From Candidatus Latescibacterota bacterium (GTDB lineage Bacteria; Latescibacterota; UBA2968; UBA8231), in NCBI GenBank assembly GCA_965242865.1, contig CBDETK010000013.1:3072001-3136000 (forward strand): a stretch of 64,000 nucleotides of DNA, in the 5' to 3' direction. A program made the translations under genes and the position numbers. A model generated the notes under the pieces. It had not been told where the DNA came from. It saw only the letters and a program-made list of their open reading frames with translations, and did no database searches. Shown here piece by piece: positions 376-60,156 of the stretch (position 1 is the stretch's first letter; every line of letters begins with the position of its first letter).

Positions 376-591
376 GATCTTCTCCTATTGGCACGTAGGG
401 GGTTGCGAGGACAAAAGTAATGGCGTCTAGCGCGGCGTTTGTCAAGGGCCGGTCCACAAATTCAAAAGAAGCAACTCCTTGTCAAACAAAATGTTACAAC
501 GCCTAGAAGCACTTGACTTACCTTGACTTTTCCCTAGCCCAAGCATAGCTTTTTCCATCACTTTTCTCTGTGGAAAGGCAAGCAAAAGGTC

Positions 592-2334: not shown

Positions 2335-2338
2335 TCGA

Positions 2339-6074: not shown

Positions 6075-6077
6075 GCA

Positions 6078-8240: not shown

Positions 8241-8284
8241 ACGTCAGTCCGCCCACACTGGGCCTAGTTTTATGAGGATTTAGC

Positions 8285-11545
<3,261 letters not shown>

Positions 11546-11559
11546 GCGGTTGAAGCGAC

Positions 11560-13026: not shown

Positions 13027-13030
13027 ATGC

Positions 13031-13064
13031 AAAAAGCCCCCGGGCCACGCGGCCTGGGGGCTTT
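13031..13064. terminator. Probable bidirectional intrinsic terminator
   Basis: AAAAAGCCCCCGGGCC-ACGC-GGCCTGGGGGCTTT hairpin between convergent genes. Confidence 0.8.
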
Positions 13065-13089
13065 GTTCTCGCTGATTGCGACAGTGCGG

Positions 13090-13572: not shown

Positions 13573-13737
13573 ATAGACCTCCCTGTAGGGTGAGATTCTC
13601 TGTTTCGTCGGCCTCAAAATACGCCTCAGAGAGGCGAAAATCAAGCACTCTCTACGCCGGACCTATTGACGGAGTTCGGGTGCGCTCATAATATCAATTT
13701 TTCGCATCCCACGATCTCACCTGAGGGCATCTATTCC

Positions 13738-14706: not shown

Positions 14707-14716
14707 TTAGAGCGCT

Positions 14717-14902
14717 ATGGTCAAAAACTTGCTCCGCGCCTTTTTGGTCTTTCGCTTGGAGTTTCACCAGCCCACCCTCCACGTCGAGGCCATGTTGAGC
14801 TATTGGCGGCGAACCCCCATCGTCCAGTACGTGATTGAAGACGACGGCGCCGAGCGCAGCCTCGCGCTTGAGCACCGGCTCGACGAGATTTATCCCTTCT
14901 AA
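14717..14902 (+). CDS. Small hypothetical protein (61 aa)
   Basis: Fills the gap after purC; its stop overlaps the next start (TAATG). Confidence 0.5.
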   Translation: MVKNLLRAFLVFRLEFHQPTLHVEAMLSYWRRTPIVQYVIEDDGAERSLALEHRLDEIYPF

Positions 14903-15180
14903 TGCTGCATCGCCAGCTCAGAAACGCCTTGGAGGAAATTTTCGGCGTGTCCTTTGTCGCCGAGGCACTCGCCAACGCGCCCATTGCCCACGTCGTCCTG
15001 TACGAGCGGCGCGAGGATTTCAAAAAGGCCGTCCGCGGCTTCCAGCGGATCAATTTCCGCGACGAACACACCGCGTATGCCGAGGACCTGGAGCGCGAGT
15101 TGAGCATCGCCCTCATCTGCGCCCTCCTCGACAACGACACGCGCGCGCTGGTTTCCGAACTCGGTCTCAACTATCTATAG
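14902..15180 (+). CDS. Small hypothetical protein (92 aa)
   Basis: Protein-like composition and host-like codon use; translationally coupled to the upstream ORF. Confidence 0.7.
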   Translation: MLHRQLRNALEEIFGVSFVAEALANAPIAHVVLYERREDFKKAVRGFQRINFRDEHTAYAEDLERELSIALICALLDNDTRALVSELGLNYL

Positions 15181-15200
15181 CAATCCTACATCATTCAAGA

Positions 15201-15227
15201 CTGGATTCCCGCTTTCGCGGGAATGAC
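15201..15227. repeat. REP-like palindromic element
   Basis: CTGGATTCCCGCTTTCGCGGGAATGAC. Its complement GTCATTCCCGCGAAAGCGGGAATCCAG matches a widespread REP/dRS3-like element. Confidence 0.75.
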
Positions 15228-15288
15228 GCCTCTATACAAAACAGGGCCGATGAACATTCCATGCTTTCAAGTCATTTAGGGTAGCTAT

Positions 15289-16758
15289 ATGAGCAAGCTG
15301 CTCGCCTTTGACCTAGGGGCCGAGAGCGGCCGCGCCATCGTCGGGCATTTCGACGGCGAGCACCTAGTGCTAGAAGATCTGCACCGCTTTGCAAACGGTC
15401 CCGTTCGCGTGTTCGACCGGCTCTACTGGGATCCGTTGCGCCTCTTCGCCGAGATGAAGCAGGCCCTCGGCCTCTTTGCCCGCACCCATGGCCAAGACCT
15501 CGACGCGCTGGGCGTCGATACTTGGGGCGTCGATTTTGCCCTCCTCGGCCCCGACGACGCGCTCTTGGACAATCCGCGCAACTACCGCGACCCGCGCACC
15601 GACGGCATGTTGGCGGAAGCCTTCGCCCGGGTGCCGCGCGAGGAAATTTTTGCCCGCACCGGCGTACAGTTTTTGCCGCTCAACACCTTGTACCAACTGC
15701 TTTCGTTGCGCGACTCGCCCGTGCTAAAATGGGCGCAGACCTTCCTGATGATGGCCGACCTTTTCAATTTTTACTTTACCGGCACTAAGACTTGCGAGTT
15801 TTCCAACGCCACGACCACCCAGTTCTACGACCCGCGCCGAGGTCGGTGGTCGGTCGAGCTCCTGGAAGGGCTGGGGCTGCCGACCCATTTCCTGCCCCAG
15901 ATCGTCCAACCCGGAACCCGCCTAGGCTCGCTCCTGCCTTCTATTGCCGCTGAAACAGGGCTTCGTTCGGTCCCGGTTATCGCTCCAGCTACTCACGATA
16001 CGGGCGCGGCCGTGGCGGCCGTGCCCGCCCAAGGCCGCGACTACGCCTATATCAGCTCGGGCACTTGGTCGCTGATGGGCGTCGAGCTCGACCAGCCGCT
16101 CATCAGCGAGCAGGCATTCCAGTACAACTTCACCAACGAAGGCGGCTTCGGGCCGACCTACCGCTTCCTCAAAAACATCATGGGGCTGTGGCTGATACAG
16201 GAATGCCGGCGCACGTGGCAGCGCGAGGGACGCCCCTTTTCGTACGACGCGCTGACGGCCATGGCCCAAAGCACCCCCCCCTTTACCGCTTTCGTCGATC
16301 CAGACGCCGAGTGCTTTCTCGCGCCGGGCGATATGCCGGCCCGAATCCGCGCCTATTGCCAAGAGACGGGCCAAACCATTCCCGCCGACGAAGGGCACGT
16401 CGTGCGCGTGGCCCTCGAAAGCCTGGCGTTTAAGTACCGCTACGTCCTCGACGCGCTAGAGGCCATTCTAGGCCGCCGCCTCGAATGCATCCACATCGTC
16501 GGCGGCGGGATCCAAAATCGCCTGCTCTGCCAATTCACCGCCTCGGCGACCGGCCGGCCGGTCGTGGCCGGGCCGCTCGAAGCGACGGCCATCGGCAATG
16601 TAATGCTCCAGCTCATTGGCCTCGGCCAACTCGCCTCGCTGGCCGAAATCCGCCAAGTGGTGCGGCACTCCTTCGCGCCCGTTGAGTACGAGCCGGAACG
16701 AGCCGCCGCTTGGGACGCGGCCTACGACCGCTTCCGCTCGCTGCTCCCCCCGGCCTGA
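15289..16758 (+). CDS. rhaB: Rhamnulokinase (FGGY family)
   Basis: AFDLGAESGR, GVDTWGVD, YRDPRT, NTLYQL, HDT, SSGTWSLMG, TNEGG, KNIMGLW. Confidence 0.92.
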   Translation: MSKLLAFDLGAESGRAIVGHFDGEHLVLEDLHRFANGPVRVFDRLYWDPLRLFAEMKQALGLFARTHGQDLDALGVDTWGVDFALLGPDDALLDNPRNYRDPRTDGMLAEAFARVPREEIFARTGVQFLPLNTLYQLLSLRDSPVLKWAQTFLMMADLFNFYFTGTKTCEFSNATTTQFYDPRRGRWSVELLEGLGLPTHFLPQIVQPGTRLGSLLPSIAAETGLRSVPVIAPATHDTGAAVAAVPAQGRDYAYISSGTWSLMGVELDQPLISEQAFQYNFTNEGGFGPTYRFLKNIMGLWLIQECRRTWQREGRPFSYDALTAMAQSTPPFTAFVDPDAECFLAPGDMPARIRAYCQETGQTIPADEGHVVRVALESLAFKYRYVLDALEAILGRRLECIHIVGGGIQNRLLCQFTASATGRPVVAGPLEATAIGNVMLQLIGLGQLASLAEIRQVVRHSFAPVEYEPERAAAWDAAYDRFRSLLPPA

Positions 16759-16861
16759 TCCGGGCCGGAACCGCGCCCTTCCTCCGTCGTCTTACTTGCA
16801 CAGGCGCGCTAGAGCGCACTGTGGCACCGTTGCTCATCACTTTTCGCTGGCGTGGGCTACT

Positions 16862-47847: not shown

Positions 47848-47871
47848 CATAGACCCGCCGCAGCGTTGTCT

Positions 47872-48456
47872 CTAGTTGAGGCTGCTTTTTAGCTGGCCCC
47901 AAGTGGTGTGCTCAACCGCCGTCGGCGCCTCGGCGGCCGGATAAAAGCCCGAGCCAATTATGAACTCTTGCCCCAAGACGTTGAGCGGAGCGGCATAGCC
48001 CACTTTAAGCGAGCCGCTTTCTTCGTCGCCATCTACGACCGGGTTGTCCCAAAGATACTCGACATAACCGCCCCCATCGGCGGCCGCACTGATGAGCTCT
48101 TGCAGGATTTTGACGCCGTTGGCATCCTCAAGGTCAATTAGGTCTTGGCCCTCGAGGCTTTGATCGGCACCGTGAAAGACGCCGACCCCGGCGGTGGTAA
48201 AAACGAAAAGATAGATCGGGCCTTCGTTCCACTCGCCTTCTGCCCTGAAGGTTTGAAAAGAACCCAGCGCCTCCGCAAGGGAGGTAAAGCCCTCCACCAC
48301 GGCCTTGGCTCTCAGGACAAACGCTTCCAAAGTAGCCCGATCGACCACGTCGCCAGCCGTTATCTCGTCGTCTTGGGCAAAGGCCGGTCCCGCGCTGCAA
48401 AACAGGACCGCCAGCCCTAACACGCACGCAAAACGCGCAATGCACTTGCTCTTCAT
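47872..48456 (-). CDS. Secreted stand-alone single Cache domain protein
   Basis: Signal peptide (AFA-Q); IYLFVF, DLEDANG, GGGYVEYLW, K.GY, IIGSG.Y; ends TAVEHTTWGQLKS. Confidence 0.85.
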   Translation of the reverse strand: MKSKCIARFACVLGLAVLFCSAGPAFAQDDEITAGDVVDRATLEAFVLRAKAVVEGFTSLAEALGSFQTFRAEGEWNEGPIYLFVFTTAGVGVFHGADQSLEGQDLIDLEDANGVKILQELISAAADGGGYVEYLWDNPVVDGDEESGSLKVGYAAPLNVLGQEFIIGSGFYPAAEAPTAVEHTTWGQLKSSLN

Positions 48457-48528
48457 AATGAACTTGCTCCTCTGCATGAGTTGTGGTTAAGAGACCAAGC
48501 GGCCTCGTGCGCCTTACTGCCCTTACTG

Positions 48529-49695
48529 TCAGAAGGTCGCGTTGGTTAATAGAAATGCAAAAGTCATGTTGCCCTTCAATCCGTTTACCGCTGCCATGGC
48601 GTCGTCGGAGACGACCTGCGACAGCCCCCCTACTACGGCGACGTTTGGCCGATACTGATAGGTCAGCGTCAAATCGACCTCCTCGCACAAGTGCTCGCCT
48701 TTTGCGGCAGTGAAAAACGAGTGCCCGTGGACGGCCAGCGAGGTGCGGGTGCCCAGCGGCACAGCCCCTTTGAGCGCGAAGTCCTGTAGGCCCAATCCGT
48801 TGGTGTGTACTGGGATATTGAGAAAGCGGTCGGCGAAACCGTAGAACTTGTGATTCGTGGCAAAGAGCGTGTCAAAGACCTTGGTTTCGCCATCGTATGG
48901 GTCGCTGTCGCCGGACAGGTAATCGTACCACAGGTCCAGTTTCAGCCGGCCAAAGGGGCGGCCGACTCGACCACCGAACATAAACGCCGCCACGTCCTCG
49001 CCGCGGCGCGTACCGGTCTGATACGAACCTTCCACGCGGTACGCGTAGGCCGCCCTCTGCCCGGCTAGACGCAAACCGAGCGTAACTCGGTCGGTAGTCG
49101 GGGCCCCTGCCTCTTTGTCGTAAAGCCCGAACATGTCCAAGTCCCCCAACGTCGCATAGATACCGGCTAAATAGGCGTCGTGGGAAAACTGCGCCGAACT
49201 CGCCTCGGCTAGCTGGATGGCCACCACATCCACCTTGCCCCAAGACGGCGCGAGCGACAAGCGCAGCCCGTCGAAAACCCGGCCTTGCTGGGTCCATTCA
49301 ACGGCGCCGATCAAGCGCTGGCCGCCGAGCGCAACGGCTTGCCGCCCGATCTTGAGCGCGTGGCGGCTGCCGCCGAGCTGCTTGAAGTGAATATAGGCTT
49401 GATGCAGGTCGAAGTTGTCGGCGCTGTAATCGGCCAAGGTGTTCTGCTCCTCGCCGAAGAAGCGCACGTCTTGGAGCTGGATCATCGCGTCCACATCGCC
49501 GGCGAGCGCAGCATCGAGCTGGGCGCGTACCCGCATTGAGGTAAAGGCTGCGGTGGCCTCGGTGCCGTCGCGCAACGGGTTGCGGAATTCGTAGCGCGGC
49601 CGGATTTGGCCGCTTAGGCTGATTTCCCTTTCGGCGTAGGCCCCGTCGCAAACGACATAAGTACATAGCAAGGTGAGATACAGCGTACAACGCAT
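48529..49695 (-). CDS. Alginate-export (AlgE-like) family outer-membrane porin
   Basis: GQIRPRYEFR, LQDVR, DLHQAY, GRQ..GGQRLIG..W.Q.GR.FDG, YDYLSGD, FATNHKFYG; C-terminal F. Confidence 0.85.
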   Translation of the reverse strand: MRCTLYLTLLCTYVVCDGAYAEREISLSGQIRPRYEFRNPLRDGTEATAAFTSMRVRAQLDAALAGDVDAMIQLQDVRFFGEEQNTLADYSADNFDLHQAYIHFKQLGGSRHALKIGRQAVALGGQRLIGAVEWTQQGRVFDGLRLSLAPSWGKVDVVAIQLAEASSAQFSHDAYLAGIYATLGDLDMFGLYDKEAGAPTTDRVTLGLRLAGQRAAYAYRVEGSYQTGTRRGEDVAAFMFGGRVGRPFGRLKLDLWYDYLSGDSDPYDGETKVFDTLFATNHKFYGFADRFLNIPVHTNGLGLQDFALKGAVPLGTRTSLAVHGHSFFTAAKGEHLCEEVDLTLTYQYRPNVAVVGGLSQVVSDDAMAAVNGLKGNMTFAFLLTNATF

Positions 49696-49729
49696 GTCGT
49701 GCCTCCTTGATGAGCGCAAAGACATTTTA

Positions 49730-49753
49730 ATATACGCAAATATACGCATTTAT
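49730..49753. promoter_or_regulatory. Imperfect inverted/direct repeat, candidate operator of the porin gene
   Basis: ATATACGCAAATATACGCATTTAT: two ATATACGCA copies, 16 of 24 positions self-complementary. Confidence 0.4.
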
Positions 49754-49788
49754 TGAGATAGCTCCACGTTCTAAAATGAAGCCCTCGC

Positions 49789-50106
49789 TTAGCGCAGCAA
49801 CCGCTCGCTAAATAGCGTCCGCGCCAAGGCGCGCACATCTCGCTCGCCAGCCGAATAGACCTGCCCTACCGACACCAGCACCACCTCGACCTCGCCAGAG
49901 CCTATCCGATAGACAATGCGGAACCAGCCGCCCGGCGGACGCAAGCAGCGATAGCCCTTTAACTCGCCGACCAAGGGCCAGCCCTGGTCCTCGGGATCGA
50001 TTGCCAGCCCTGTGACGTATTGATCCACCTGCTCGGCAATCCGCCGGTTGAGCAGACCTTGCAGCGACTCTGAGGCGCACTGGGCCAAGACGACGCGAAA
50101 TCTCAT
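49789..50106 (-). CDS. RelE/ParE-family toxin (divergent)
   Basis: GWPLVGELKGYRCLR..FRIVYRI; lies downstream of a Phd-like antitoxin. Confidence 0.8.
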   Translation of the reverse strand: MRFRVVLAQCASESLQGLLNRRIAEQVDQYVTGLAIDPEDQGWPLVGELKGYRCLRPPGGWFRIVYRIGSGEVEVVLVSVGQVYSAGERDVRALARTLFSERLLR

Positions 50107-50135
50107 GGAAAACCCCTCCCTTCAGGGGCGGTGGA

Positions 50136-50393
50136 TTACTGGACCTCCCAATCGGTGCGCTCGCCCGCCTCGATCTGGCGAATACCCTCGCGCAGCGCAG
50201 CGCACTGGGCCTCGTCCCCGAGCACCTCTAAGGTTTCGACAATGCCTTGATAAAGCGACCACGGCATCAGCGCGAGCACCGGCTGGCCGCGGCGCGTTAC
50301 GGCGAGGGCACTTGCTTCGGGTTCGGCGGCGAAGCGGTCGGGCAATTGATTCAGGACTTTGCGGGCTTCGGCAATGGGCATGGATTGAAGCAT
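50136..50393 (-). CDS. Phd/YefM-family antitoxin
   Basis: MPIAEARKVL, AVTRRGQPVLALM, ETLEVL; AGAGGA RBS. Confidence 0.88.
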   Translation of the reverse strand: MLQSMPIAEARKVLNQLPDRFAAEPEASALAVTRRGQPVLALMPWSLYQGIVETLEVLGDEAQCAALREGIRQIEAGERTDWEVQ

Positions 50394-50405
50394 ATTTCCT
50401 CTTTT

Positions 50406-50434
50406 GTACCTTATATAGTACTAAATTAAGTACT
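50406..50434. promoter_or_regulatory. Putative TA operator
   Basis: Three GTAC cores spaced 8 nt apart, including AGTAC-TAAATTAA-GTACT, just upstream of the antitoxin. Confidence 0.6.
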
Positions 50435-50623
50435 CTAAGACGATGGTTTGGTTGGCTCATAATTGTAGGATTTTTCCATGAACCGGCGAGCGCGTGGAAT
50501 TTGCTAACGTATAACTCCCTAATAATACGCTACTTTTGCGAATCCTGAGAAAAGCACCTACTTGCTATGTACGTCTAAAGGTGCGAAAAAAGGTACTCCA
50601 GTTCTCTGCTCGCCGTGGGGGGC

Positions 50624-51190
50624 TCAGCGAGCATCAACAGGCTCTGTGCCGCCTTCGGAATCACCTCGCCCTAAGACTTGCAGGCTTACAAACTCAATAA
50701 TCTGCGGCAGTGTCATAGCACCAATGCGTCGGGCCTCGCGCAACAAGAGCAGTGCGGCGACGGTCGCTTGGATGATCACTTCTTGAAGCCTGCTAGCAAG
50801 GTACGCACAGCAATCCCCGTAGTGGGCGACGCAGGTTGGAGTTCCGCGCCCACACGCTTCCTTGAACCAACGATGAACAAAGGCATACGTTTTCTGATCT
50901 CTCGTGCTTTTTGTATCGAGGTTGTGGGCCACATAGGTTCGCAGACGAGACACTTCCTTGCGGAACGAATTGTCCGCCTTCAAGGGCGGCAGGTCGGTGA
51001 GAAACGCAAGCGGGATCTTTGCTGCCTCTTGGACGAGAACATAACCCCAATTGACTAGCCGATAGAACGCCAACTCATCGCCGAAGTCGGATGGCAACGG
51101 CAGCGAGATTTCGGCGCAACTGTTCGGACAGTGGACGGCAACGCGAGTGCGAAGTGTTTGATACAGGTTGCTGAGTTCGATCGGCGTCAT
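50624..51190 (-). CDS. Hypothetical protein with HEPN-like RxxxxH motif
   Basis: VSRLRTYVAHN in a helical context; ATGA overlap with the upstream large gene. Confidence 0.6.
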   Translation of the reverse strand: MTPIELSNLYQTLRTRVAVHCPNSCAEISLPLPSDFGDELAFYRLVNWGYVLVQEAAKIPLAFLTDLPPLKADNSFRKEVSRLRTYVAHNLDTKSTRDQKTYAFVHRWFKEACGRGTPTCVAHYGDCCAYLASRLQEVIIQATVAALLLLREARRIGAMTLPQIIEFVSLQVLGRGDSEGGTEPVDAR

Positions 51191-54100
51191 CGTATGCGCC
51201 TCGGGCGTGAGAGCGGATCGGCAATGGGGCCAATATAGTTGAAGGCGATGCCAAACTCTCGCAGCTCTCGACCATGGGCGAGCTCAGCGTTTGGGAACTC
51301 GCGCGCCAGCAATGAGATGGGCTCCTCAATACCCTCTACTCGCACTTGCCAGTTGTTTTCTCTCCTCGCTTCGACGCGCCCCCGAAATTGACGCGGGGAA
51401 CCGTTCTCATCCGTTGCCAAAAGCCACCGCTCTACTCGCGCTCGATCCTCGTAATCTGTATCGCGCGACAGCGACCGCCATATCTCGATGGCGCGCTTCG
51501 TGTCTTTGAGTAGCCAGCATAACACCGCTTCGAGAAACCGCTCCCGGTTGCGGGCATCGCCCCCGGCTTGTTCGTTGAGATCACTTACGATTTTACGCAA
51601 CTCAAAAATCAGGTCCGTGTCCACGGGGGTGCATCCACGCTGATTGAACATCAGACGCTCGCCCGTTGCCTGCGCCCACCGCAACCTGAGCAAGAGCCGT
51701 TGGCAACGGTCATCCAACACAATTCCTTTCTTGACGCGACGGGATATGTAGTCTGCCGCTTGATCTGCGATCTTGCGAGCTTTGTCGTCGAAAGGCGGCT
51801 CGCCCATATACACTTGCTCCGCCTGCCGCTTTGCGATGAGAAAGGTTGCTGCCGCGGGCGCGATATTTTCCAATTCAGCAAGCGTCTCATCGCTCAGTTT
51901 CGCGTCGTCCATAGCGTCTGCAACACGGCTACGACGCTCGAGATACCTCGTTTTTTGATCTAAGGCGGCTAACCCCTCGTCCAAGTCACTGTCTTTTTGT
52001 AAATCATTCGGGATTCCAGCCTTCTTTCCTTTCACTCTGAAGACTTCATCGGCAACATCAATGGTTGCGTACAGGTCGGCCAAAACTTCCGCGCGTTGTG
52101 CATCGGACATTTCGTCCTTTTTTAGTTTGAGCACATCGCTCGCTGTCCAAAGGGCGATGTCAATGGGATGGGTGTTTCTGCCAAGCCCAATGGCTTTCTC
52201 GCTTGCCGTCCTTGCAGCGAGATAGTCCGACCAAAAGTCCTCGCCGCCACTAGACCGCGCACGCTCAATAGCGAGGTATCCGTATATCGCCGAACGTTCT
52301 GCAACAAGGCTTTGTTTAGTCTTTCTAGAGACTGAAATTATTTCTTCGTCAATTTGACGGAGCGTCTTTTCGACTGTAGCGCGAGCCTCATCCAAAATAG
52401 CCAATCGCTCGTCGTCGGTTCTATCATCGTAATCGCTTTGTGACCGGGAAACCGCCCTTCGCCGAAACACGCACTCGGGCAAAACGAGGTCTGGGTCGGA
52501 CATTTTGTTGTGCTCTCGCAACTTCTTGAGCGCGTCGGAAAACCGCAGATACCCAGAACGGTACGCCTCTTTGCGCGGTCCGTTCCGAATCATGAACAGC
52601 AAGTTGAGCAAGAACGAACGCTCGGCACTTTGATCCAATCCAAATCTGACGCTGCCGATCAAATCGATCAGTCGCTCAATTTCCTGCTCGGGAGTAAGTC
52701 TTCGCTTACATATAAGCTCTGCCTCGAGCTGTATGCGTGGCGAAATCAGAAAATCCGCTCCTTCTTGGTCATCTATCCAACGGAACAGATCAAGACCGGC
52801 GAGGAGGTAAGTGATTTGATCCAGATGCAGCCCCCTACCTGACCGAGCAGGCGAAAAATAACATTGACGGGCACTGCACAATCCAGCCGACCAGCTACCA
52901 TCACATAGTCAATTAGTTGTCCCGCTTCGTCCAAACCCAAAGCCGCGAGCTCTTCATCTTCCTCGAACAACGGCGAAGTTGAACTGGCAAGGCCCAACTC
53001 AATCAACTGTTCCGCTAAGGGAGATAGTCCAGTAGATGGTTGCGGCATATACTTTGCCCGTTCCCGCACCATACTTTCCGTAACTCTTGCCTCCGATGAC
53101 ACGCCTACGGCGAGGCGTTCGCGTGAGGCGGGCAACCTGCGGTATAGCATGGCAAAGATCGAGTCAGTGGTATAGGGTAGCGAGTGATCATAGCCGAATG
53201 TGTTCAGCAATTTCTCAAACGCGACCCGTTCATCCGGCGAAACACTAACGGGGGCCTCGACAAGTCGCTTTAACTCACCTTCGCTCTGTGCTTCCATCCG
53301 ATAGCAAGTTCCCACTATGAGCAACCTGCGGCCCCGACTTCGCAGCGCAGAGGCCAAATCGTCGTAGCGTTGCGGAGGTTGGCTGGCGTCGCAGACCAAG
53401 ACCGTCGCTTTCGCTCCCAAACGTTCGGCCTCCAAGCAGAATGCTTCAATGTCCATGGGATTCGGTATCCGATTCGTCGCGACCACAACGGGCAGGTGTA
53501 GTTCGCGACGAATCTTTCGGGTCAGCCGTGCGAGCGCGATGCTCTTTCCCGTGCCCGACTGCCCATGCAGGATAATCACATCGTCGGAATCGGCTTGTCC
53601 AAGTTGCTCCAACTCGTTGTTCACTGTCTGCCACAGGGTTTGCTCAAACTCGCGCTCTACTGCAAATCCACGCGCCACCCCCTCCACCAGCGATCTGAAA
53701 TTGCCAAGTGTGCCGTGAAAGCGGCGGAACGCATCGTCTATTTCGGAGCTGCTATAAGGCTCTGGCTCTTCCGTCCACCCATCATCGACAATAGCTGCCG
53801 ACGCTTCTACTCGGAGCCGTAGAGCCGGCGTAATGTCTAGCGCCGCTTCCTCGGCAAACGACACCATGCCCGGGTCGTCTGGAGCAGCGGACCCTGCAAT
53901 ATCGAGCACACCGCGGAGTTCAAGTTGGCTTATCGCGCTTGCAAGGGTCGTTTCGGTCACAATGAGCGAACGGTGCTGGATCATCGCGTCGGCGAGCCCC
54001 GATTCCCCTTTGCCGGAATAGCCGAACCATAGAACCTTGGGGCCTGCCTGATCGAATGGAGCCAATAACGAGTCCAGTTGCATCCAATCTTTGCTTGGGT

Positions 54101-54666
54101 CATAGCCCGCTATGATCACCAAGCCGTGTGCTGTCGCGGTTTCCGCAATGCGATTCAGCAATTCCGTCGCGTGTCGGCTAAGGCGGCGCGTCAGATCAAT
54201 TTGATTGCCGGGTGCTCGCGCATACTCAACGGTTTCATCGGATTTTCCCAAGAGATAGTGAATCGGCGGCCTTGAGCGACTACGCGGGACCTTCGCGTAG
54301 ATGTCTTTGGAAAGCACCGTTTCGGGCTGCCGTCCCCTAGTCTCGAAACGTCGCGCAAACCGGGGATCTATGGACGAGGTAAACACCGCACTCCATGCGA
54401 CATCGAAGTGTTCCCTCGGCCGCGGCCGAGGGAACACTTCGGTCAAACCGTTCAGAAAGCCACGCCATATCAGCCCCACTTATGCCCTGCTTGAGGGCTA
54501 CGCGCCATCCCGAATTGCGCTCTGTGCATCCAAAGCGATCGAGGAGGGAACCAAGTACGGCATCATGGGCCGAGTCGAGACTCTGGCCTGCGAACAACAC
54601 CAACGGCCGCTTCGCCTGAAGCGCGTCCGCGAGTATTTCAAGGGGATCCGTCGATGAACTTAGCAT
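51187..54666 (-). pseudogene. SAMD9/Avs-like protein (SIR2-like, STAND NTPase, helical repeats, OB fold), about 1159 aa, split by two frameshifts
   Basis: ORFs 54666-54337, 54479-52773 and 52881-51187 join via +1 and -1 shifts. Motifs LVLFAGQS, WSAVFTSSID, IHYLLG, LIIAGY-like; Walker A GQSGTGKS; Walker B VLVCD; C-terminal FGIAFNYIGPIA. Confidence 0.75.
54404..54441. repeat. Perfect 38-bp palindrome
   Basis: CGAAGTGTTCCCTCGGCCG|CGGCCGAGGGAACACTTCG is its own reverse complement. Confidence 0.95.
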
Positions 54667-54834
54667 GGTCTATTTCTAAGAATTATCATTGATTATGGAA
54701 TGTGGAAAAACCGAATCAGGCGAATCCCCCATGCGCTCGGGTACGGGGAAAATCTACCTTGCTCACGTTAATAAGGTACACTCTGCGGAAACCCCGCGCT
54801 ATCCGCGTTTTGCCGCAATTCCTATCTTATCTTC

Positions 54835-55833
54835 ATGCCCCAACTCGCGCCCCCATACCTGTTGTTCCTCGGCGACGCCGCCGACCAACTCGCCGCCAAA
54901 ACGGCCGTTGGCATCGCCCATTGGCGTCCCGAGCGATGCCTAGGTCAGCTTCGCCTTCCGGGCTGCCGCGCCGACCTCGGCCTACCCGACCAAACCCTCG
55001 CCGACGCCCGAGCCGCTGGTGCCCGCACCCTCATCATCGGCGTCGTCAATCGCGGCGGCATGGTGTCCGACCTCTGGCGCGACACCCTCTTGCAGGCCAT
55101 TGACCTCGGCTACGACCTCGCCAGTGGCCTACACACCCGCCTCAGCACCATCCCCGGCTTGGCCGACCGCGCTCGCGCAAAGGGCACTCGCCTCGTGGAT
55201 GCTCGCTTTTCCGACCGCGCTTTTCCCATTGCAACCGGCGTCAAACGCCCGGGCAAACGCCTGCTCACCGTTGGCACGGACTGCTCGGTCGGCAAGATGT
55301 TCACCGCGCTGGCCATGGAACGCGAGATGCAAGCGCGAGCCATGGCCTGCACCTTCCGCGCCACCGGCCAAACCGGCATCTTCATCGCCGGGACGGGCGT
55401 TGCGGTTGACGCCGTGGTTTCCGACTTCCTCGCCGGAGCGGTCGAGCTCCTGACCCCGGCCAACCACCCCGAGCACTGGGACCTAATCGAAGGCCAAGGC
55501 TCCCTGTTCCACGCCTCTTATGCCGGCGTGTCGCTGGGCCTTCTGCACGGTGCCCAGCCCGACGCGCTCGTCCTCTGCCACGATCCCAACCGCCCCCATC
55601 TGCGCGGCCTACCCGAATACCAACTGCCCGATCTGCTCGACTGCATTCGCCTCAACGAGCAGTGCGGTCGCCTCACCAACCCGGCCTGCCGCACCGTTGG
55701 CATTGCAGTCAACACCTCGCACTTGCCGGAAAACCGCGCTTCCGAACTGCTCGGGGCCATAGAGCGTCAAACCGGCCTGCCCGCCGTTGATCCGCTGCGC
55801 CAAGGGGCCGGGTGCTTGGTGGATGCCTTGTGA
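54835..55833 (+). CDS. dgcN: DUF1611 family D-glutamate N-acetyltransferase
   Basis: PYLLFLGDA..LAAKTA.GI..WRPE, SGLH, VGTDCSVGKM, ATGQTG, EGQGSL. Confidence 0.85.
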   Translation: MPQLAPPYLLFLGDAADQLAAKTAVGIAHWRPERCLGQLRLPGCRADLGLPDQTLADARAAGARTLIIGVVNRGGMVSDLWRDTLLQAIDLGYDLASGLHTRLSTIPGLADRARAKGTRLVDARFSDRAFPIATGVKRPGKRLLTVGTDCSVGKMFTALAMEREMQARAMACTFRATGQTGIFIAGTGVAVDAVVSDFLAGAVELLTPANHPEHWDLIEGQGSLFHASYAGVSLGLLHGAQPDALVLCHDPNRPHLRGLPEYQLPDLLDCIRLNEQCGRLTNPACRTVGIAVNTSHLPENRASELLGAIERQTGLPAVDPLRQGAGCLVDAL

Positions 55834-56810
55834 CGCGCTTTTCCGTCCGCAGTGAGAGCTTTCCCCTCGCCCAGCCCTTCGCCATCGTGCGCGGCGCCAA
55901 AACCACCGCTGTCGTCGTCGTCGTGGAACTGAGCCGCGATGGCTATGTTGGGCGCGGCGAATGCCTCCCTTATCCCCGCTACGGCGAAAGCGTGGCCGGG
56001 ACCATAAGCGCGTTAGAAGCGCTGCGACCGCAGGTGGAAGCCGGCCTCGACCAAGCGGCCTTGCAACGCGCCCTGCCGCCCGGTGCGGCCCGCAACGCCT
56101 TGGACTGTGCCCTGTGGGATCTAGAAGCCAAACTCAGCGGCCGCCCGGCTTACCAGCTAGCTGGTCTAGTCGCACCACGCCCGGTCGCGACGGCCTACAC
56201 CCTCTCGCTCGACGACCCCGCGGCCATGGGTCGGGCCGCGGCCTTGCACGCCAACCGCCCGCTGCTCAAGGTCAAACTCGCTGGTCGCGACGATCTCGAC
56301 CGCGTCGCCGCGATCCGCGCCAACGCCCCAGACGCAACCCTGATCGTCGATGCCAACGAAGGTTGGGCCGCCGACCAAGTCGAGCCGCTGTCGGCCGCAC
56401 TGGCTCGCTTGGGCGTCGCGCTCATCGAACAGCCGTTGCCCGCTGACCAAGACGCCTTGCTCGCCGAGTTTGAACACCCGGTCCCCTTCTGCGCCGACGA
56501 GTCCTGCCACACCGCCGCCGATCTCCCCGAACTGGCCTCCCGCTACGAATGCGTCAACCTCAAGCTCGACAAGACCGGCGGCTTCAGCGAGGCCCTGCGC
56601 TTGGCCGCCGAGGCGTCTGCGTGCGGATTGGACTTGATGGTCGGCTGCATGGTCGCCACCTCGCTGGCCATGGCACCGGCGGTCCTACTGGCCCAACGCG
56701 CCCGGTTCGTCGATCTCGACGGGCCTTTGCTCTTGCAAACAGATCGGGAACACGGGCTGCGCTACGAAGGCAGCCTCCTCCATCCGCCCGATCCTCAACT
56801 CTGGGGATAG
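55830..56810 (+). CDS. dgcA: N-acetyl-D-Glu racemase / dipeptide epimerase (enolase superfamily)
   Basis: GECLPYPRYGES, GAARNALDCALWDL, KVK, DANE, EQP, DES, KLDKTGG, GCM, DLDG. Confidence 0.88.
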   Translation: MTRFSVRSESFPLAQPFAIVRGAKTTAVVVVVELSRDGYVGRGECLPYPRYGESVAGTISALEALRPQVEAGLDQAALQRALPPGAARNALDCALWDLEAKLSGRPAYQLAGLVAPRPVATAYTLSLDDPAAMGRAAALHANRPLLKVKLAGRDDLDRVAAIRANAPDATLIVDANEGWAADQVEPLSAALARLGVALIEQPLPADQDALLAEFEHPVPFCADESCHTAADLPELASRYECVNLKLDKTGGFSEALRLAAEASACGLDLMVGCMVATSLAMAPAVLLAQRARFVDLDGPLLLQTDREHGLRYEGSLLHPPDPQLWG

Positions 56811-56866
56811 TCCGCACCTTGCTGGACGCAGGTCGCGATTCAGCGTATTCTTCCCATTTCAATCTG

Positions 56867-57829
56867 ATGAGCAACGCACTTCTATTGTTTGCCCGCGGGC
56901 TGGACGAGGCCGCGCTGCAACGCGCCGTCCCGCCATCCCTCTGGCCCAACCAGATCGAGCCGTTGGTATGCGGCGCGTTCTCGGTTGACTTGCCACCCGC
57001 AGTGCTAGAAGGGGCGCTAGAAATCCTGCCGTGCCTCTCCGTCGTCCACGACGGCGCGTGGGGCTATCAGTTCGCAGTGGAATGCGAAACCAAAACCGGC
57101 CAGCGCCACCGGGCTGTCCTCGATCCGGTCGGCTCGTTTCTCGGGGCCGAAGTAAGCGAGGCAACCGAGGCGGTCGAAGCGGCTATCGACCTCCTACGCA
57201 TCCGCACCCCATTGCAAGCAGCCACCCTCCACTTGCGCGTCCACGGCGTCCCCCCCGAGGCCCCGGCCTTGCTCTCGGTCTCAGTGCGCCACCAAGGCGC
57301 AGTGCCCGTTCCGACGCGCCGCGATACGGCCCTAACGGTGCCGCGGCAAAGCCAGATGGTGCTGCGGCCCGCGCTCGCTTCTCGCGTCTGCTCGCCGACC
57401 AGCGTCGCCATGGTCCTCGCTTATTACGGCCACAACGCGAACCTCTACGACGTGATCGCCGCGGCGCACCACCAGCCGAGCGGACTATACGGCGTGTGGC
57501 CGGCCAATATCCACGCCGCGGCTCGCCAAGGGCTTTTAGGCTATCTATTGCACTTTCCCTCTTGGGCCGCGGCGCATGCGCTGCTCGCCGCCGGCTTTCC
57601 CATTGTTGCCTCCGTCCGCTACGAGGCTGGCGAGTTGAGCCGGGCGGCTATTGAGCGGACGGCCGGGCATTTGCTGGTCGTGCGGGGTTGCGCCGGAGAT
57701 ACCGTGCTGGTCAACGACCCGGCCGCAGCCACCGACGCCGAGGTTGCCCGGGCGTACGACCTCGGGGAATTCTGCAAAATCTGGTTGGAGCGCAGTGCCG
57801 TGGGCTACGTGCTCTTTCCCGCGTTGTAA
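56867..57829 (+). CDS. Peptidase C39-like protein
   Basis: SQM..VCSPTS (Cys), GHLLVV (His), VNDPA (Asp). Confidence 0.8.
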   Translation: MSNALLLFARGLDEAALQRAVPPSLWPNQIEPLVCGAFSVDLPPAVLEGALEILPCLSVVHDGAWGYQFAVECETKTGQRHRAVLDPVGSFLGAEVSEATEAVEAAIDLLRIRTPLQAATLHLRVHGVPPEAPALLSVSVRHQGAVPVPTRRDTALTVPRQSQMVLRPALASRVCSPTSVAMVLAYYGHNANLYDVIAAAHHQPSGLYGVWPANIHAAARQGLLGYLLHFPSWAAAHALLAAGFPIVASVRYEAGELSRAAIERTAGHLLVVRGCAGDTVLVNDPAAATDAEVARAYDLGEFCKIWLERSAVGYVLFPAL

Positions 57830-57834
57830 TCGCC

Positions 57835-58698
57835 ATGGACAAATCGACCTTCACGTCCATCGTCTTCGGCGAGATCCTCTACGATTGCTTCCCCGATCGC
57901 ACCTGCTTGGGAGGGGCCGCCCTGAACTTTGCTTGGAACCTGCGCCAACTCGGCTTTCCCGTGGCCATGGTCAGCGCGGTGGGGCGGGACGAACTAGGGC
58001 GACGAGCGCGGGGCTTTCTCCAGCGCACCGACATCGATCTGCAATGGGTCGCCGATCGGCCCGAGCCTACGGGCACGGTCGAGGTGGCACTCAACGCTGG
58101 CCAGCCCACCTACGCCATTCGCGCCGGCGTGGCGTGGGACTACATCGAAGCGAAACCAACATTGGACCGGCCCATCGACCTGATTTACTATGGGACAGCC
58201 GCGCAGCGCAGTCCGGCCAATCGTCCGGGGCTAGCTCACTTGCTGGCGGCCAAGCCCCGGCATCGGTTTTTCGATGTCAACCTGCGCGAGGGCTGCTACA
58301 CGCCGCAGACCGTGCGCTTGGGGCTTGAAGCGGCGACTAGTGTCAAACTCAACCGCGAAGAGTGGGAGGTCGTGCGGGACTTGACCGCAGTCTCCGCGCC
58401 CGCCGACTTGCTCGCCCGCTACGCGCTGGACCGCCTCGCGATTACCTTTGGCCGCGACGGCGCTCAACTCCACGTTCCGGGGGCCTCGTTTGCCGCCCGG
58501 CCCGCGCCAGCGTCCGTCGTCGATGCGGTCGGCGCCGGCGACGCCTTTAGCGGGGTTTTGGCCGCCAGCGCCCTGCTCGGCACCAACCCGCAACAGGCCC
58601 TAGACTTAGCGTGTGCCGCCGGTGCCAGCGCGGTGCAGCACCGCGGGGCGCATTGCCCGCTACCCCAAGCCGTGAAAGCGGCGTTTGCCCTTACCTAG
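57835..58698 (+). CDS. PfkB-family carbohydrate kinase
   Basis: FGEILYD, GGAALN, DVNLR, KLN, DAVGAGDAF. Confidence 0.92.
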   Translation: MDKSTFTSIVFGEILYDCFPDRTCLGGAALNFAWNLRQLGFPVAMVSAVGRDELGRRARGFLQRTDIDLQWVADRPEPTGTVEVALNAGQPTYAIRAGVAWDYIEAKPTLDRPIDLIYYGTAAQRSPANRPGLAHLLAAKPRHRFFDVNLREGCYTPQTVRLGLEAATSVKLNREEWEVVRDLTAVSAPADLLARYALDRLAITFGRDGAQLHVPGASFAARPAPASVVDAVGAGDAFSGVLAASALLGTNPQQALDLACAAGASAVQHRGAHCPLPQAVKAAFALT

Positions 58699-58713
58699 CG
58701 AAAGGTTTTCCCC

Positions 58714-59658
58714 ATGCAGACCCCTATCCCTTTGTGCGACCCCCACTTCCACCTCTGGGACCTAGCCGAGCGGCCCAACCCCAATCTCGGGGCCGTCATG
58801 CCGGCGTACCGAGCCGCCGACTACGCCCAAGACATGCGCGAACTGCCCTCTGAGTTGCAGCGGGTCAGCGGCGTCCACGTCGAAACCGTCGTCGGCCAAG
58901 TCGCCGGCGGCGTTTCCGTCGATACCGTCGAGGAAACTCGCTGGGTGCGCGACCAGCTCGAACCGACCGCGGCCGAACAGCCCTTTGGCATGGTCGCGTA
59001 CGTGCATCTGGAGCGCGACTTGGCCGCGGCCGAGCGCACCATTGAACAACACGTAGAGGCCGCTGGGGGCCGGCTGCGCGGCGTGCGCATGATCCTCAAT
59101 CACCATCCCGACAATCCCGACCTGACTTGGCCGCAGGTCGAAGACGGCGTGTTGCAGAGCAGCCGCTTCCGCGCGGGCTTGGCCCTGTTAGAACGCCACA
59201 ACCTCGCCTTTGACCTTTCCTGCAATCCCCACCAAGTGGCCGACGCGGTCGCGGTCTTCCGCGATTTCCCGGACCTCCGCGTCGTCGCCAACCACCTCGG
59301 CTTCCTCCACGACGGCGAGGACCAAGCGCACGAGGACCTCTGGCGCGAAGGCATGGCCGCGCTGGCCGCCTTGCCCAACATCTATATGAAGCTATCTATG
59401 GCGTGGTTTGCCCGGGCCGCCTTCCACGAAGACGCGGCCAAAGAGGCCAAAATCGCCGCGGTCGTCCACGAGCTGATCGAGCACTTTGGCTGTAGCCGCT
59501 GCATGTTTGCCAGCAACTATCCCGTTGACAAACTGCGGGGCATTAGCATCGGCTACCTCTACGCCAAGTTCCTCGAGTGGAGCACCGGCTTTTCGGGCGA
59601 CGAGCGTCGGGCGCTCTTCCACGACGCGGCTCTCAGCGCTTACGGGCCGCTTGCGTAA
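58714..59658 (+). CDS. Amidohydrolase_2 family protein (sugar lactonase-like)
   Basis: DPHFHLWD, GVR, NHLG, MKLS, FASNYPVD. Confidence 0.85.
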   Translation: MQTPIPLCDPHFHLWDLAERPNPNLGAVMPAYRAADYAQDMRELPSELQRVSGVHVETVVGQVAGGVSVDTVEETRWVRDQLEPTAAEQPFGMVAYVHLERDLAAAERTIEQHVEAAGGRLRGVRMILNHHPDNPDLTWPQVEDGVLQSSRFRAGLALLERHNLAFDLSCNPHQVADAVAVFRDFPDLRVVANHLGFLHDGEDQAHEDLWREGMAALAALPNIYMKLSMAWFARAAFHEDAAKEAKIAAVVHELIEHFGCSRCMFASNYPVDKLRGISIGYLYAKFLEWSTGFSGDERRALFHDAALSAYGPLA

Positions 59659-59664
59659 TGCGCC

Positions 59665-60156
59665 ATGAACACCAACGACTATACCCACTGGCGCGACAGC
59701 ACGGGCGCGCCGCTGACGAAAAGGCCCGACCGGCTCGGCGTGGCGACCAACGGCTTTATCCGCGACAAGACCGGCAAAATCCTGCTGCAACAGCGTGCGG
59801 ACAACGGCTTTTGGGGCCTGCCCGGCGGCCAAGTTGAACTCGGCGAATCCGTCGAACAAGGCGTGGTGCGCGAAGTGTATGAGGAAACGGGCTTACAGGT
59901 ACATGTCGAGCGGCTGATTGGGGTGTACTCGGGGCTAGCAAGCTATCCGTTTATGCGCTATCCCAACGGCACCGTCGTCCACTACCTCACCGTCGTCTTT
60001 GCCTGCGACCCGGTCGCTGGCACCTTGCGGCTCTCCCCCGAAAGCACGGACCTCGGCTATTTTGCCGCCGATGCCCTGCCCGCACAGACCTTGCTCTCGC
60101 ACCGCCTCCGCATTGAGGACGCCCTGACCGGCCTAGTGTACCCGTTTATTCGCTAA
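59665..60156 (+). CDS. NUDIX hydrolase
   Basis: Nudix box GGQVELGESVEQGVVREVYEETG. Confidence 0.93.
   Translation: MNTNDYTHWRDSTGAPLTKRPDRLGVATNGFIRDKTGKILLQQRADNGFWGLPGGQVELGESVEQGVVREVYEETGLQVHVERLIGVYSGLASYPFMRYPNGTVVHYLTVVFACDPVAGTLRLSPESTDLGYFAADALPAQTLLSHRLRIEDALTGLVYPFIR

What the first reader, a model, noticed from the sequence alone, without database searches (positions are those of the whole stretch)
50624..54666. Candidate two-gene antiviral system: SAMD9-like STAND sensor coupled to a separate HEPN-like effector
Seen in sequence: a lower-GC island with foreign codon use. Three minus-strand ORFs join into one 3480-nt frame (about 1159 aa). It has a SIR2-like N-terminus, a P-loop (LHGQSGTGKS; VLVCD), a long helical region and a beta-rich end (FRGRVE...FGIAFNYIGPIADP). 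Its stop overlaps (ATGA) the start of a 188-aa gene containing RTYVAH (Rx4H). Established: human SAMD9/SAMD9L and bacterial Avs9-like homologues have the order SIR2-like, STAND NTPase, TPR, OB fold, and as I recall SAMD9 ends in a similar F.LGFS..GP.A. Rx4-6H is the HEPN RNase signature. Inference: this copy has no N-terminal AlbA nuclease, so the effector may be the separate HEPN-like protein, a split sensor/effector layout I do not recognise as a named system. An adjacent Phd-RelE module fits a defence island.
Basis: partly seen in the sequence, partly recalled or inferred. Interest (0 to 1): 0.85.

Follow-up and report, generated by a model that had tools for sequence, protein, structure and literature searches.

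The report
Broken two-gene SAMD9-like immune module
This is a decayed copy of a rare, mobile two-gene module in which a SAMD9/Avs5-like sensor ATPase with a non-catalytic sirtuin-like head is paired with a small helical partner protein of unknown fold that probably acts as, or carries, the killing activity.

The parts
54337..54666 (-). Large gene, fragment 1: start of the SIR2-like domain (about residues 1-83 of the intact protein)
   Evidence: tblastn of intact relative P0001, residues 2-78, 94.8% identity, frame -3
54410..54435 (.). Lesion 1: a +1 frame change at the edge of a perfect 26-nt palindrome
   Evidence: Sequence read; DNA alignment to L001-L007. Contigs of runs X1 and X2 lack one base at 54409/54410. 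Not bridged by X10 contigs, which stop at 54355 and restart at 54457, so it is not independently confirmed.
52773..54479 (-). [quoted passage not shown]
   Evidence: P0001 residues 65-609, 93.9% identity, frame -1. Pfam nSTAND_NTPase5 at 30.5 bits against a cut-off of 34. Walker A residues are invariant in 41 relatives.
52830..52833 (.). Lesion 2: loss of one base (a C) that shifts the frame back
   Evidence: DNA alignment. X1 and X2 contigs have an extra C behind 52830. X10 and X13 contigs (two studies) are identical to the window here.
51187..52881 (-). Large gene, fragment 3: helical TPR-like arm and small C-terminal beta domain
50624..51190 (-). Small partner gene, an in-frame deletion allele (188 aa instead of about 299). 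It keeps the invariant R-x4-H-N but lacks residues about 139-249.
   Evidence: P0121, a 98%-identical 188-aa protein, shares the deletion.
50773..50777 (.). Lesion 3: junction of the 333-nt deletion in the small gene
   Evidence: blastn to L001 places the two sides 333 nt apart. X10 and X13 contigs cross the junction unchanged. X1 and X2 contigs run on into the missing segment.
50136..50393 (-). Phd/YefM-type antitoxin gene downstream of the module
   Evidence: PF02604, E 4.2e-10, 39.7 bits against a cut-off of 29.8. Syntenic in L001, L004, L007, L009 and L016.
49789..50106 (-). Probable ParE/RelE-superfamily toxin gene
   Evidence: Sub-threshold only: ParE_toxin E 0.0092 (17 bits against 23); TIGR02385 E 0.052

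Best explanation
Window 50624-54666 holds an inactivated copy of a conserved, horizontally mobile two-gene module.

Gene 1 (about 1160 aa when intact) is an NLR-like STAND NTPase of the SAMD9/Avs5 structural type. From N to C terminus it has a SIR2-fold domain that has lost the canonical catalytic Asn and His, a P-loop NTPase, a TPR-like helical arm and a small beta-rich C-terminal domain.

Gene 2 (about 299 aa when intact) overlaps gene 1's stop codon. It is all-helical and carries a universally invariant R-x4-H(-N) site together with E55. Across the wider family its C-terminal part matches the tail domain of tRNA nucleotidyltransferases.

Inferred mechanism: the sensor arm recognises an invader-derived trigger, and NTP-dependent assembly of the STAND follows. 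The non-catalytic SIR2-like domain serves as the docking platform for the partner. The partner delivers the output. In this subfamily that is most likely an RNA- or tRNA-directed activity at the R/H site. In relatives it is a fused TIR or PNP domain.

Shown: fold similarity, gene linkage, residue conservation, predicted docking and decay of this copy. Inferred: defence role, trigger and partner chemistry.

In this genome the module is dead. It has a +1 and a -1 frame change in gene 1 and a 111-codon deletion in gene 2, and that deletion removes most of the predicted docking surface.
For: Fold of the large protein:
- Foldseek: human SAMD9 9zjw/9zjr/9zjs at E 2e-16 to 4e-15; EfAvs5 9jap at 9e-13; AVAST5 9nc9 at 3e-9.

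Inactive SIR2-like domain:
- In 16 diverse loci the motif is F-T-[ST]-[STG]-[IVL]-D, and [FL]-G stands where His-Gly is expected.
- A PDB profile hit aligns FTssiD to YTTAYD of a sirtuin-type chain.
- One of 16 members hits Pfam 'Inactive Sirtuin' at E 0.0021.

Linkage:
- The small gene is directly downstream in 25 of 27 genome-contig loci, from at least seven phylum-level labels and down to 34% identity of the large protein. L025 and L027 end before the site.
- The same 12 of 168 genomes of the phylum hold both genes, and the genes are adjacent.
- No third gene recurs across the loci.

Cassette behaviour:
- Outside the syntenic relatives, only 50624-54677 aligns at DNA level, at 72-85% identity, in other lineages.
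- A viral-class contig carries the pair beside an integrase, a resolvase and a Bro-N protein.

Partner:
- R84 and H89 are present in 137 of 137 representatives that cover the columns, E55 in 130 of 131 and W108 in 139 of 140.
- 23 of 38 broad-family members match PF13735, best E 7.2e-7.
- Fused forms carry TIR_2 (P0281, P0366) or PNP_UDP_1 (P0331).

Docking:
- ipSAE was 0.73/0.74/0.75, and the best of 3 controls was 0.00. That mark was reached by 58 of 80 solved complexes and 2 of 110 mismatched pairs. The runs share at least 79% of contacts and the partner pLDDT is at least 73.
- The interface is large-protein residues 28-106 and 237, and small-protein residues 63-75 and 148-211.
- It includes residues invariant within the close family: R68, R71, V73, T104 and G106 in the large protein; L67, P68, D154, R157 and L158 in the small one.

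Decay.
Against: - No experiment links the pair to phage defence.
- PADLOC-DB v2 recognises neither gene.
- The window's own neighbours are housekeeping-type genes apart from the toxin-antitoxin pair.
- Defence neighbours in other loci are patchy. Each listed PADLOC family hit only 2 of 129 flank ORFs, 8 of 10 large flank ORFs had no hit, and no background control was run.
- R84 and H89 are also invariant in the TIR- and PNP-fused forms, which fits a ligand-binding or regulatory site as well as a catalytic one.
- The identity of the canonical SIR2 catalytic residues is recalled, not taken from a call.
- The complex score is a model's own confidence, and my own alignments were used, so the calibration holds only roughly.
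- SIR2-partner complexes such as KomBC are solved, so some memory effect cannot be excluded, although the partner here is unrelated.
- I did not test docking on the C-terminal half of the large protein.
Confidence: 0.6

Rival explanations
1. One reading: the small protein is a HEPN-fold RNase, with R-x4-H as the composite active site of a dimer, and the STAND sensor switches it on.
For: - R-x4-H-N is invariant in 29 close relatives, in all 25 locus copies and in 137 of 137 representatives.
- The domain is all-helical.
- The nearest named ESM Atlas clusters for the whole protein and for residues 1-150 are RnlA/RNase LS HEPN clusters, scoring 0.75-0.80. The tool rates this as a lead only.
- An RNA-linked tail domain (PF13735, 23 of 38 members) would suit an RNase.
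Against: - Foldseek found no PDB match at E <= 0.001.
- 0 of 38 members hit any Pfam HEPN family at E <= 1.
- hhalign against an RnlA-type profile gave probability 0.1-0.2%, and against a HepT-type profile 3.8% and 0.3%.
- These profile tests had no power: the control of RnlA against HepT, two true HEPN families, gave only 0.4%.
- In the model, R84 ends a helix and H89 lies in a loop. As I recall, HEPN motifs normally sit at the start of the fourth helix.
Confidence: 0.25
2. The small protein is not an enzyme but an adaptor or regulator. It docks on the SIR2-like domain and couples the STAND to an output. That output is fused in some relatives (TIR, PNP) and lies elsewhere, or is simple sequestration of RNA/tRNA, in the unfused form. 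The R/H site would bind a ligand or RNA rather than cleave it.
For: - Fusions of the whole small-protein module to TIR_2 (2 proteins) and PNP_UDP_1 (1 protein) among the 10 longest representatives scanned.
- R/H is invariant in those fusions too.
- Docking is predicted through residues 63-75 and 148-211, away from R84/H89.
- The interface residues are conserved in the close family but variable in the wide family (P68 in 44 of 131, R157 in 27 of 140), as expected for a lineage-specific docking surface.
Against: - Most family members (about 300 aa; length list) have no fused enzyme, and no third conserved gene exists. An adaptor would then have nothing to deliver.
- I could not obtain the genomic context of the fused forms, so their pairing with a SAMD9-like STAND is unverified.
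Confidence: 0.25
3. The pair is a housekeeping or signalling STAND module, for example transcriptional or stress regulation, and not an immune system.
For: - Housekeeping-type neighbours in the window.
- The locus is syntenic in five related genomes.
- No PADLOC match.
- Sigma-like weak structural matches for the partner.
- Mekhedov et al. 2017 (PMC5445408, passages read) proposed signal transduction for bacterial SAMD9-like proteins.
Against: - Patchy presence: 6 of 31 genomes of the genus, 12 of 168 of the phylum, and none of 400 further sampled Pseudomonadota.
- 72-85% DNA identity of the cassette across phylum-level labels.
- Carriage next to an integrase, a resolvase and a Bro-N protein.
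- TIR and PNP fusions.
- The closest structural relatives are immune proteins.
- Recent loss of function here, while about 98%-identical strains keep the module.
Confidence: 0.1
4. The breaks are sequencing or assembly errors, and the organism's genes are intact.
For: - Lesion 1 lies at a perfect palindrome. Contigs of run X10, otherwise identical to the window, stop at 54355 and restart at 54457 with adapter-like loose ends, so this break is seen only in the window's assembly.
- Large genes split into two ORFs also occur in 3 of 27 other loci (L014, L024, L025), mostly metagenome bins.
Against: - Lesion 2 and the 333-nt deletion are reproduced without any difference in contigs of X10 and X13, which belong to two different studies. 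X10 may be the window's own sample.
- The deletion allele also exists as a distinct 98%-identical protein, P0121.
- Lesion 2 alone truncates the large protein after the NTPase.
Confidence: 0.05

Closest known systems
Human SAMD9/SAMD9L and bacterial Avs9 (AlbA_2-SIR2-like-STAND-TPR-OB)
   Same: - Same domain order from the SIR2-like domain onward.
- In SAMD9L the Sir2-like domain is proposed to be a scaffold rather than an enzyme (bioRxiv 10.64898/2026.02.01.703102, passages read). This matches the loss of catalytic residues here.
   Different: - No AlbA_2 nuclease and no SAM domain: the protein begins with the SIR2-like domain.
- No sequence-level match to any SAMD9 chain.
- The output is presumably supplied by a separately encoded partner, which neither SAMD9 nor Avs9 is described as having (PMC12680541, passages read).
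- The OB fold is not demonstrated.
Avs5 (AVAST type 5, SIR2-STAND NADase)
   Same: - N-terminal SIR2 fold followed by a STAND NTPase and a helical sensor.
- The Avs5 sensor is reported to cluster with SAMD9 (PMC13581612, passage read).
   Different: - Avs5 is a single-gene system whose Sir2 domain hydrolyses NAD+ (10.1101/2025.07.08.663546, abstract and passages). Here the catalytic Asn and His positions are substituted and a second gene is obligatory.
- The Avs5 NTPase is called nSTAND3 in that preprint. This one scores best with Pfam nSTAND5.
- No PADLOC model matches.
Avs6 (PNP-SAMD9-like core)
   Same: A SAMD9-like core combined with a PNP-type effector (PMC12680541, passage read). A PNP domain also appears in this system's wider family (P0331).
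   Different: In Avs6 the PNP is fused to the N-terminus of the STAND. Here it is fused to the C-terminus of the separate partner in a relative, and the window's subfamily has no PNP at all.
HEPN RNase effectors (RnlA/LsoA, HepT, PrrC-type anticodon nucleases)
   Same: A strictly conserved R-x4-H in an all-helical domain, and association with an NTPase and with an RNA-linked domain.
   Different: No fold, Pfam or profile match to HEPN. The motif placement in the model is atypical (the usual placement is recalled).

Membership tests
SAMD9/Avs9 architecture | N-terminal AlbA_2 nuclease domain | tested here: not met
   Model residue 1 aligns to SAMD9 residue 392, i.e. the Sir2-like domain. No AlbA_2 hit in Pfam on three intact relatives.
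SAMD9/Avs9 architecture | Variant SIR2-like domain preceding the NTPase | tested here: met
   [not shown]
SAMD9/Avs9 architecture | STAND-type P-loop NTPase | tested here: met
   Walker A H-G-Q-S-G-x-G-K is invariant in 41 relatives. Foldseek hits to SAMD9, Avs5 and the STAND-TPR protein 6mfv. Pfam nSTAND_NTPase5 is the best family.
SAMD9/Avs9 architecture | TPR-like helical repeat arm | tested here: met
   [not shown]
SAMD9/Avs9 architecture | C-terminal OB fold | tested here: inconclusive
   Five predicted strands at 1091-1147. The C-terminal profile's best PDB hit is the OB region of a proteasome-activating nucleotidase at E 0.31, with no SAMD9 chain. The fold searches barely sampled this part.
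Avs5 (SIR2-STAND) | Catalytically competent SIR2 NADase (canonical Asn and His; the motif identity is recalled) | tested here: not met
   The Asn position is S/T/G and the His position is F/L in all 16 diverse loci. Register supported by the alignment to a solved sirtuin-type chain. Enzymatic activity was not assayed.
Avs5 (SIR2-STAND) | Single-gene system recognised by defence-system models | tested here: not met
   An obligatory second gene. No PADLOC-DB v2 hit beyond P-loop noise (E >= 0.016). That the library holds Avs5 models is recalled, not checked.
Pfam PF25199 nSTAND_NTPase5 | Score at or above the gathering cut-off (34 bits) | tested here: inconclusive
   25.7-31.5 bits in my scans. 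The protein collection's precomputed labels give PF25199 to most relatives listed.
HEPN superfamily | Conserved R-x4-6-H motif | tested here: met
   R84 and H89 in 137 of 137 representatives covering the columns, and in 25 of 25 locus copies
HEPN superfamily | HEPN four-helix-bundle fold | tested here: inconclusive
   [not shown]
HEPN superfamily | Profile similarity to a described HEPN family | tested here: inconclusive
   0 of 38 members hit a Pfam HEPN family. hhalign against the RnlA profile gave 0.1-0.2% and against the HepT profile 0.3-3.8%. The RnlA-against-HepT control also failed (0.4%), so the test lacks power.
Phd-ParE/RelE type II toxin-antitoxin | Antitoxin and toxin both above family cut-offs | tested here: inconclusive
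   Phd passes (39.7 against 29.8 bits). The toxin is below cut-off (ParE 17 against 23; RelE_StbE 14.1 against 27.9).

The most novel reading that the evidence does not exclude
The catalytically dead SIR2-like domain of this STAND clade is a dedicated socket for a new family of exchangeable, separately encoded output subunits. Each subunit has a helical module with an invariant E/R/H site and a tRNA-nucleotidyltransferase-like tail, used alone or extended by TIR or PNP. This would be a 'plug-in effector' NLR. It would imply that the enigmatic Sir2-like domain of human SAMD9/SAMD9L descends from, or works as, an effector-docking scaffold. It would also imply that the unfused partner is a new, non-HEPN class of tRNA-directed nuclease.
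Probability: 0.25. Interest if true: 0.8.

Novelty: new variant of a known kind. Interest (0 to 1): 0.6.

Why it matters
SAMD9/SAMD9L are human antiviral and disease genes, and the role of their Sir2-like domain is unclear. Bacterial look-alikes described so far (Avs5, Avs6, Avs9) carry their effector in the same polypeptide. This clade appears to have a dead Sir2-like domain that holds a separate partner. That gives a simple two-protein system for testing what such a domain does, and a conserved partner family of 428 representative clusters with no assigned fold or function. The window's copy also shows how quickly such modules decay: it has three lesions, while strains about 98% identical keep the module intact.

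Tried and rejected
- HEPN by profile: single RnlA-like sequences and a 28-sequence RnlA profile gave probability <= 0.2%. A 30-sequence HepT profile built in a script gave 3.8% and 0.3%. At least one row of that HepT alignment looked mis-framed. The RnlA-against-HepT control gave 0.4%, so I draw no conclusion from these negatives.
- ESM Atlas: only RnlA-type leads at 0.75-0.80, which the tool rates as chance-level.
- Sequence search of PDB: nothing significant with the whole large profile, the small profile or the C-terminal profile. The N-terminal profile's best hit, a KdpD histidine kinase at E 0.0034, looks spurious.
- Rosetta-stone fusion of large and small proteins: none among 148 representatives.
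- Context of the TIR/PNP-fused relatives: not obtained. The metagenome scan with P0432 found no relative, and alignments A4 and A8 were too diverse to seed a scan.
- Sampling of 400 further Pseudomonadota genomes found no additional copy.
- A third conserved gene: none.
- Promoter and terminator scans were at shuffle level: 4 found against 2.7 expected, and 4 against 5.8.
- Literature: four searches found no description of this pair (terms SAMD9/STAND/bacterial/HEPN; nSTAND5/nSTAND; inactive Sir2/STAND/effector/tRNA nucleotidyltransferase; STAND NTPase/separate effector/two-gene system/Sir2-like/anti-phage). A term search of PMC13581612 for separate, accessory or adjacent genes found no such system. 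Its supplementary tables of 589 STAND clades were not available, so this clade may be listed there.
- Codon usage was not computed.
- Docking of the partner on the C-terminal half of the large protein was not tested, because only one complex job was allowed.

Full report
**Observation.**
The minus strand of 50624-54666 holds three ORFs: 54337-54666, 52773-54479 and 51187-52881. Together they span 3480 nt. A 188-aa ORF (50624-51190) follows, and its ATG overlaps the upstream TGA as ATGA. The first and third ORFs share a frame and the middle one is shifted. GC falls to 0.51-0.59 across 50500-55000, against 0.63-0.69 on either side. Codon use was not computed.

**Relatives and lesions.**
- The middle ORF finds 428 long proteins (E <= 0.001 among 8000 scored). 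The 120 listed are 1076-1255 aa, and the best, P0001, is 94% identical.
- The small ORF finds 115 proteins (of 551 candidates). Most are 284-305 aa and cover only 79% of the query.
- tblastn of P0001 and P0122 against the window gives three pieces for the large gene (residues 2-78, 65-609 and 609-1156) and two for the small gene (1-149 and 251-299).
- DNA alignment with intact loci shows the three lesions:
  - Lesion 1 is a +1 change at the edge of a perfect 26-nt palindrome (54410-54435).
  - Lesion 2 is the loss of one base near 52830.
  - Lesion 3 is a 333-nt in-frame deletion in the small gene, with its junction at 50773-50777.
- Contigs of public runs test these lesions:
  - X10 and X13, from two studies, match the window exactly across lesion 2 and the deletion junction.
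  - X1 and X2, about 98% identical (64 differences in 3920 nt for X1), have the extra C at 52830 and one base fewer at 54409/54410. They also run on into the segment deleted here.
  - X10's contigs stop at 54355 and restart at 54457, so lesion 1 is not independently confirmed.
- A distinct 98%-identical 188-aa protein (P0121) shares the deletion.
- In the window's phylum, 12 of 168 genomes carry the pair. Only the window's genome has it in pieces.

**The large protein.**
- Pfam gives only a sub-threshold nSTAND_NTPase5 match (25.7-31.5 bits against a cut-off of 34).
- Walker A is invariant in 41 relatives.
- An AlphaFold2 model of P0001 (mean pLDDT 76.9) matches these by Foldseek:
  - human SAMD9 at E 2e-16 to 4e-15;
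  - EfAvs5 at 9e-13;
  - AVAST5 at 3e-9;
  - a STAND-TPR protein at 5e-6.
- There is no sequence-level hit to any solved chain.
- In an alignment of the N-terminal domain from 16 diverse loci, the conserved motif is F-T-[ST]-[STG]-[IVL]-D-P, and the residue before the invariant Gly is F or L.
- A profile hit aligns that motif to Y-T-T-A-Y-D of a solved sirtuin-type chain (E 1.1).
- One of 16 members hits Pfam 'Inactive Sirtuin' (E 0.0021), and two hit SIR2_2 (best E 0.037).
- From recalled knowledge of sirtuin and ThsA-type motifs, these are the positions of the catalytic Asn and His. I therefore read the domain as non-catalytic.
- The C-terminal 70 residues are predicted as five strands. An OB fold is not shown: the best PDB hit is the OB region of a proteasome ATPase at E 0.31, and no SAMD9 chain was found.

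**Linkage.**
- A scan of one genome per species returned 27 loci. Their labels are Latescibacterota, Binatia, Acidobacteriota, Gemmatimonadota, Alpha- and Gammaproteobacteria, Caldilineaceae, Myxococcota, Burkholderia and Thiohalocapsa.
- The small gene lies directly downstream in 25 of them. L025 and L027 end inside or just after the large gene.
- Apart from shadow ORFs, nothing else recurs beyond five syntenic relatives.
- The window is syntenic with L001 at about 90% DNA identity over 47854-59667. In other lineages only 50624-54677 aligns, at 72-85% identity.
- The same 12 of 168 phylum genomes hold both genes, adjacent to each other. Within the genus it is 6 of 31, counting the window's genome.
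- None of 400 further sampled Pseudomonadota genomes had the small gene.
- One IMG/VR contig carries the whole pair between a phage-type integrase, a PIN protein, a resolvase and a Bro-N protein.

**The small protein.**
- No Pfam, NCBIfam or PADLOC family matches the window copy or three intact relatives.
- The AlphaFold2 model of P0122 is all-helical (pLDDT 83).
- A profile search of 1.84 billion representatives finds 428 clusters at E <= 0.001 (308 at 1e-10).
- Among the 150 listed, conservation is as follows:
  - R84 and H89 are present in all 137 that cover the columns;
  - E55 in 130 of 131;
  - W108 in 139 of 140;
  - positions such as P68 (44 of 131) and R157 (27 of 140) vary.
- Of 38 broad-family members, 23 match PF13735, the second domain of tRNA nucleotidyltransferases (best E 7.2e-7), and none matches a HEPN family. 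P0122 itself does not reach E 1 for PF13735.
- Of the 10 longest representatives scanned, two carry a C-terminal TIR_2 domain and one carries PNP_UDP_1. One TIR form is named as a TIR protein by NCBI.
- All HEPN tests failed or lacked power. The only pointers are Atlas scores of 0.75-0.80 to RnlA-type clusters.

**Docking.**
- A complex of large-protein residues 1-650 with the partner scored ipSAE 0.73, 0.74 and 0.75. The best of 3 controls scored 0.00.
- That mark was reached by 58 of 80 solved complexes and 2 of 110 mismatched pairs. The runs agree in at least 79% of contacts, and the partner pLDDT is at least 73.
- The model supports binding but does not show it.
- These include residues invariant within the close family.
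- They flank the would-be NAD pocket motifs.
- The window's deletion (about residues 139-249) removes most of the second patch.

**Context.**
- The window's neighbours are isocitrate dehydrogenase, GroEL, an M23 peptidase, a surface protein, a Cache protein, a porin, DUF1611, an epimerase, a C39-like peptidase and a PfkB kinase.
- Only the Phd plus sub-threshold ParE/RelE pair is conflict-related.
- Among 129 flank ORFs of 19 non-syntenic loci, the PADLOC families seen (2 ORFs each) included type III methyltransferase, mad6, PtuA, MkoA and PD-T4-6 kinases.
- PifA sits next to L012 and DUF499/HmaC next to L020. Eight of the 10 large flank ORFs tested had no hit.
- No background control was run, so this context is suggestive only.

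**Comparison with what is known.**
- Passages of PMC12680541 describe the known bacterial look-alikes:
  - Avs5 is SIR2-STAND.
  - Avs6 is PNP plus a SAMD9-like core.
  - Avs9 is AlbA_2-SIR2-STAND-TPR-OB.
- PMC13581612 notes that the Avs5 sensor clusters with SAMD9.
- The Avs5 preprint calls its NTPase nSTAND3 and shows NAD+ hydrolysis.
- The SAMD9L cryo-EM preprint proposes a scaffolding role for the Sir2-like domain.
- None of the passages I read describes a SAMD9-like STAND with an obligatory separate partner. Four literature searches found none either. Supplementary tables were closed.

**Verdict.**
This is a real, conserved and mobile two-gene module of the SAMD9/Avs5 structural kind, with a dead SIR2-like docking domain and a partner of unassigned fold. 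A defence role is likely but untested. The HEPN label is unproven. This window holds a recently inactivated copy.

Noticed in passing
window 54410-54435: A perfect 26-nt palindrome lies exactly at the first frame change. Contigs of run X10 end on both sides of it (54355 and 54457) with adapter-like loose ends, so this stretch may be hard to sequence or assemble.
   Followed up: partly
L014, L024, L025: The large gene is also split into two ORFs in 3 of 27 other loci. This may be recurrent decay of the module or errors in metagenome bins.
   Followed up: no
L023 10309-11625 (also L040/L045): The small-gene ORF in the Myxococcota locus is 439 aa and matches the family profile twice (positions 26-254 and 172-269). 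This suggests a partial internal duplication of the C-terminal part.
   Followed up: no
L078 (IMG/VR contig) 138-16826: The complete pair sits between a phage-type integrase, a PIN_12 protein, a serine resolvase and a Bro-N protein. The pair is therefore cargo of an integrative element or prophage.
   Followed up: partly
window 49789-50393: The Phd antitoxin and the weak ParE/RelE-like toxin are conserved in the same position in five syntenic relatives (L001, L004, L007, L009, L016). They belong to the lineage's locus rather than to the transferable two-gene cassette.
   Followed up: partly
genomes of the window's phylum: HepT-type HEPN genes are very common in this phylum: 109 of 168 genomes, often several per genome. 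The window's own genome has one at G000:C13:1604546-1604824.
   Followed up: no
L012 13889-16267; L020 7096-10197: A PifA-like gene (E 1.8e-119) lies about 2.6 kb downstream of the pair in the Xanthobacter locus. A DUF499/HmaC-like ATPase gene (E 1.1e-205) lies just downstream of the pair in a Gammaproteobacteria bin.
   Followed up: no
P0357, P0360, P0378: Three representatives carry an uncharacterised N-terminal extension of about 300 aa before the small-protein module. The extension gives only weak AAA_lid_14 hits and does not match the large-protein profile.
   Followed up: partly
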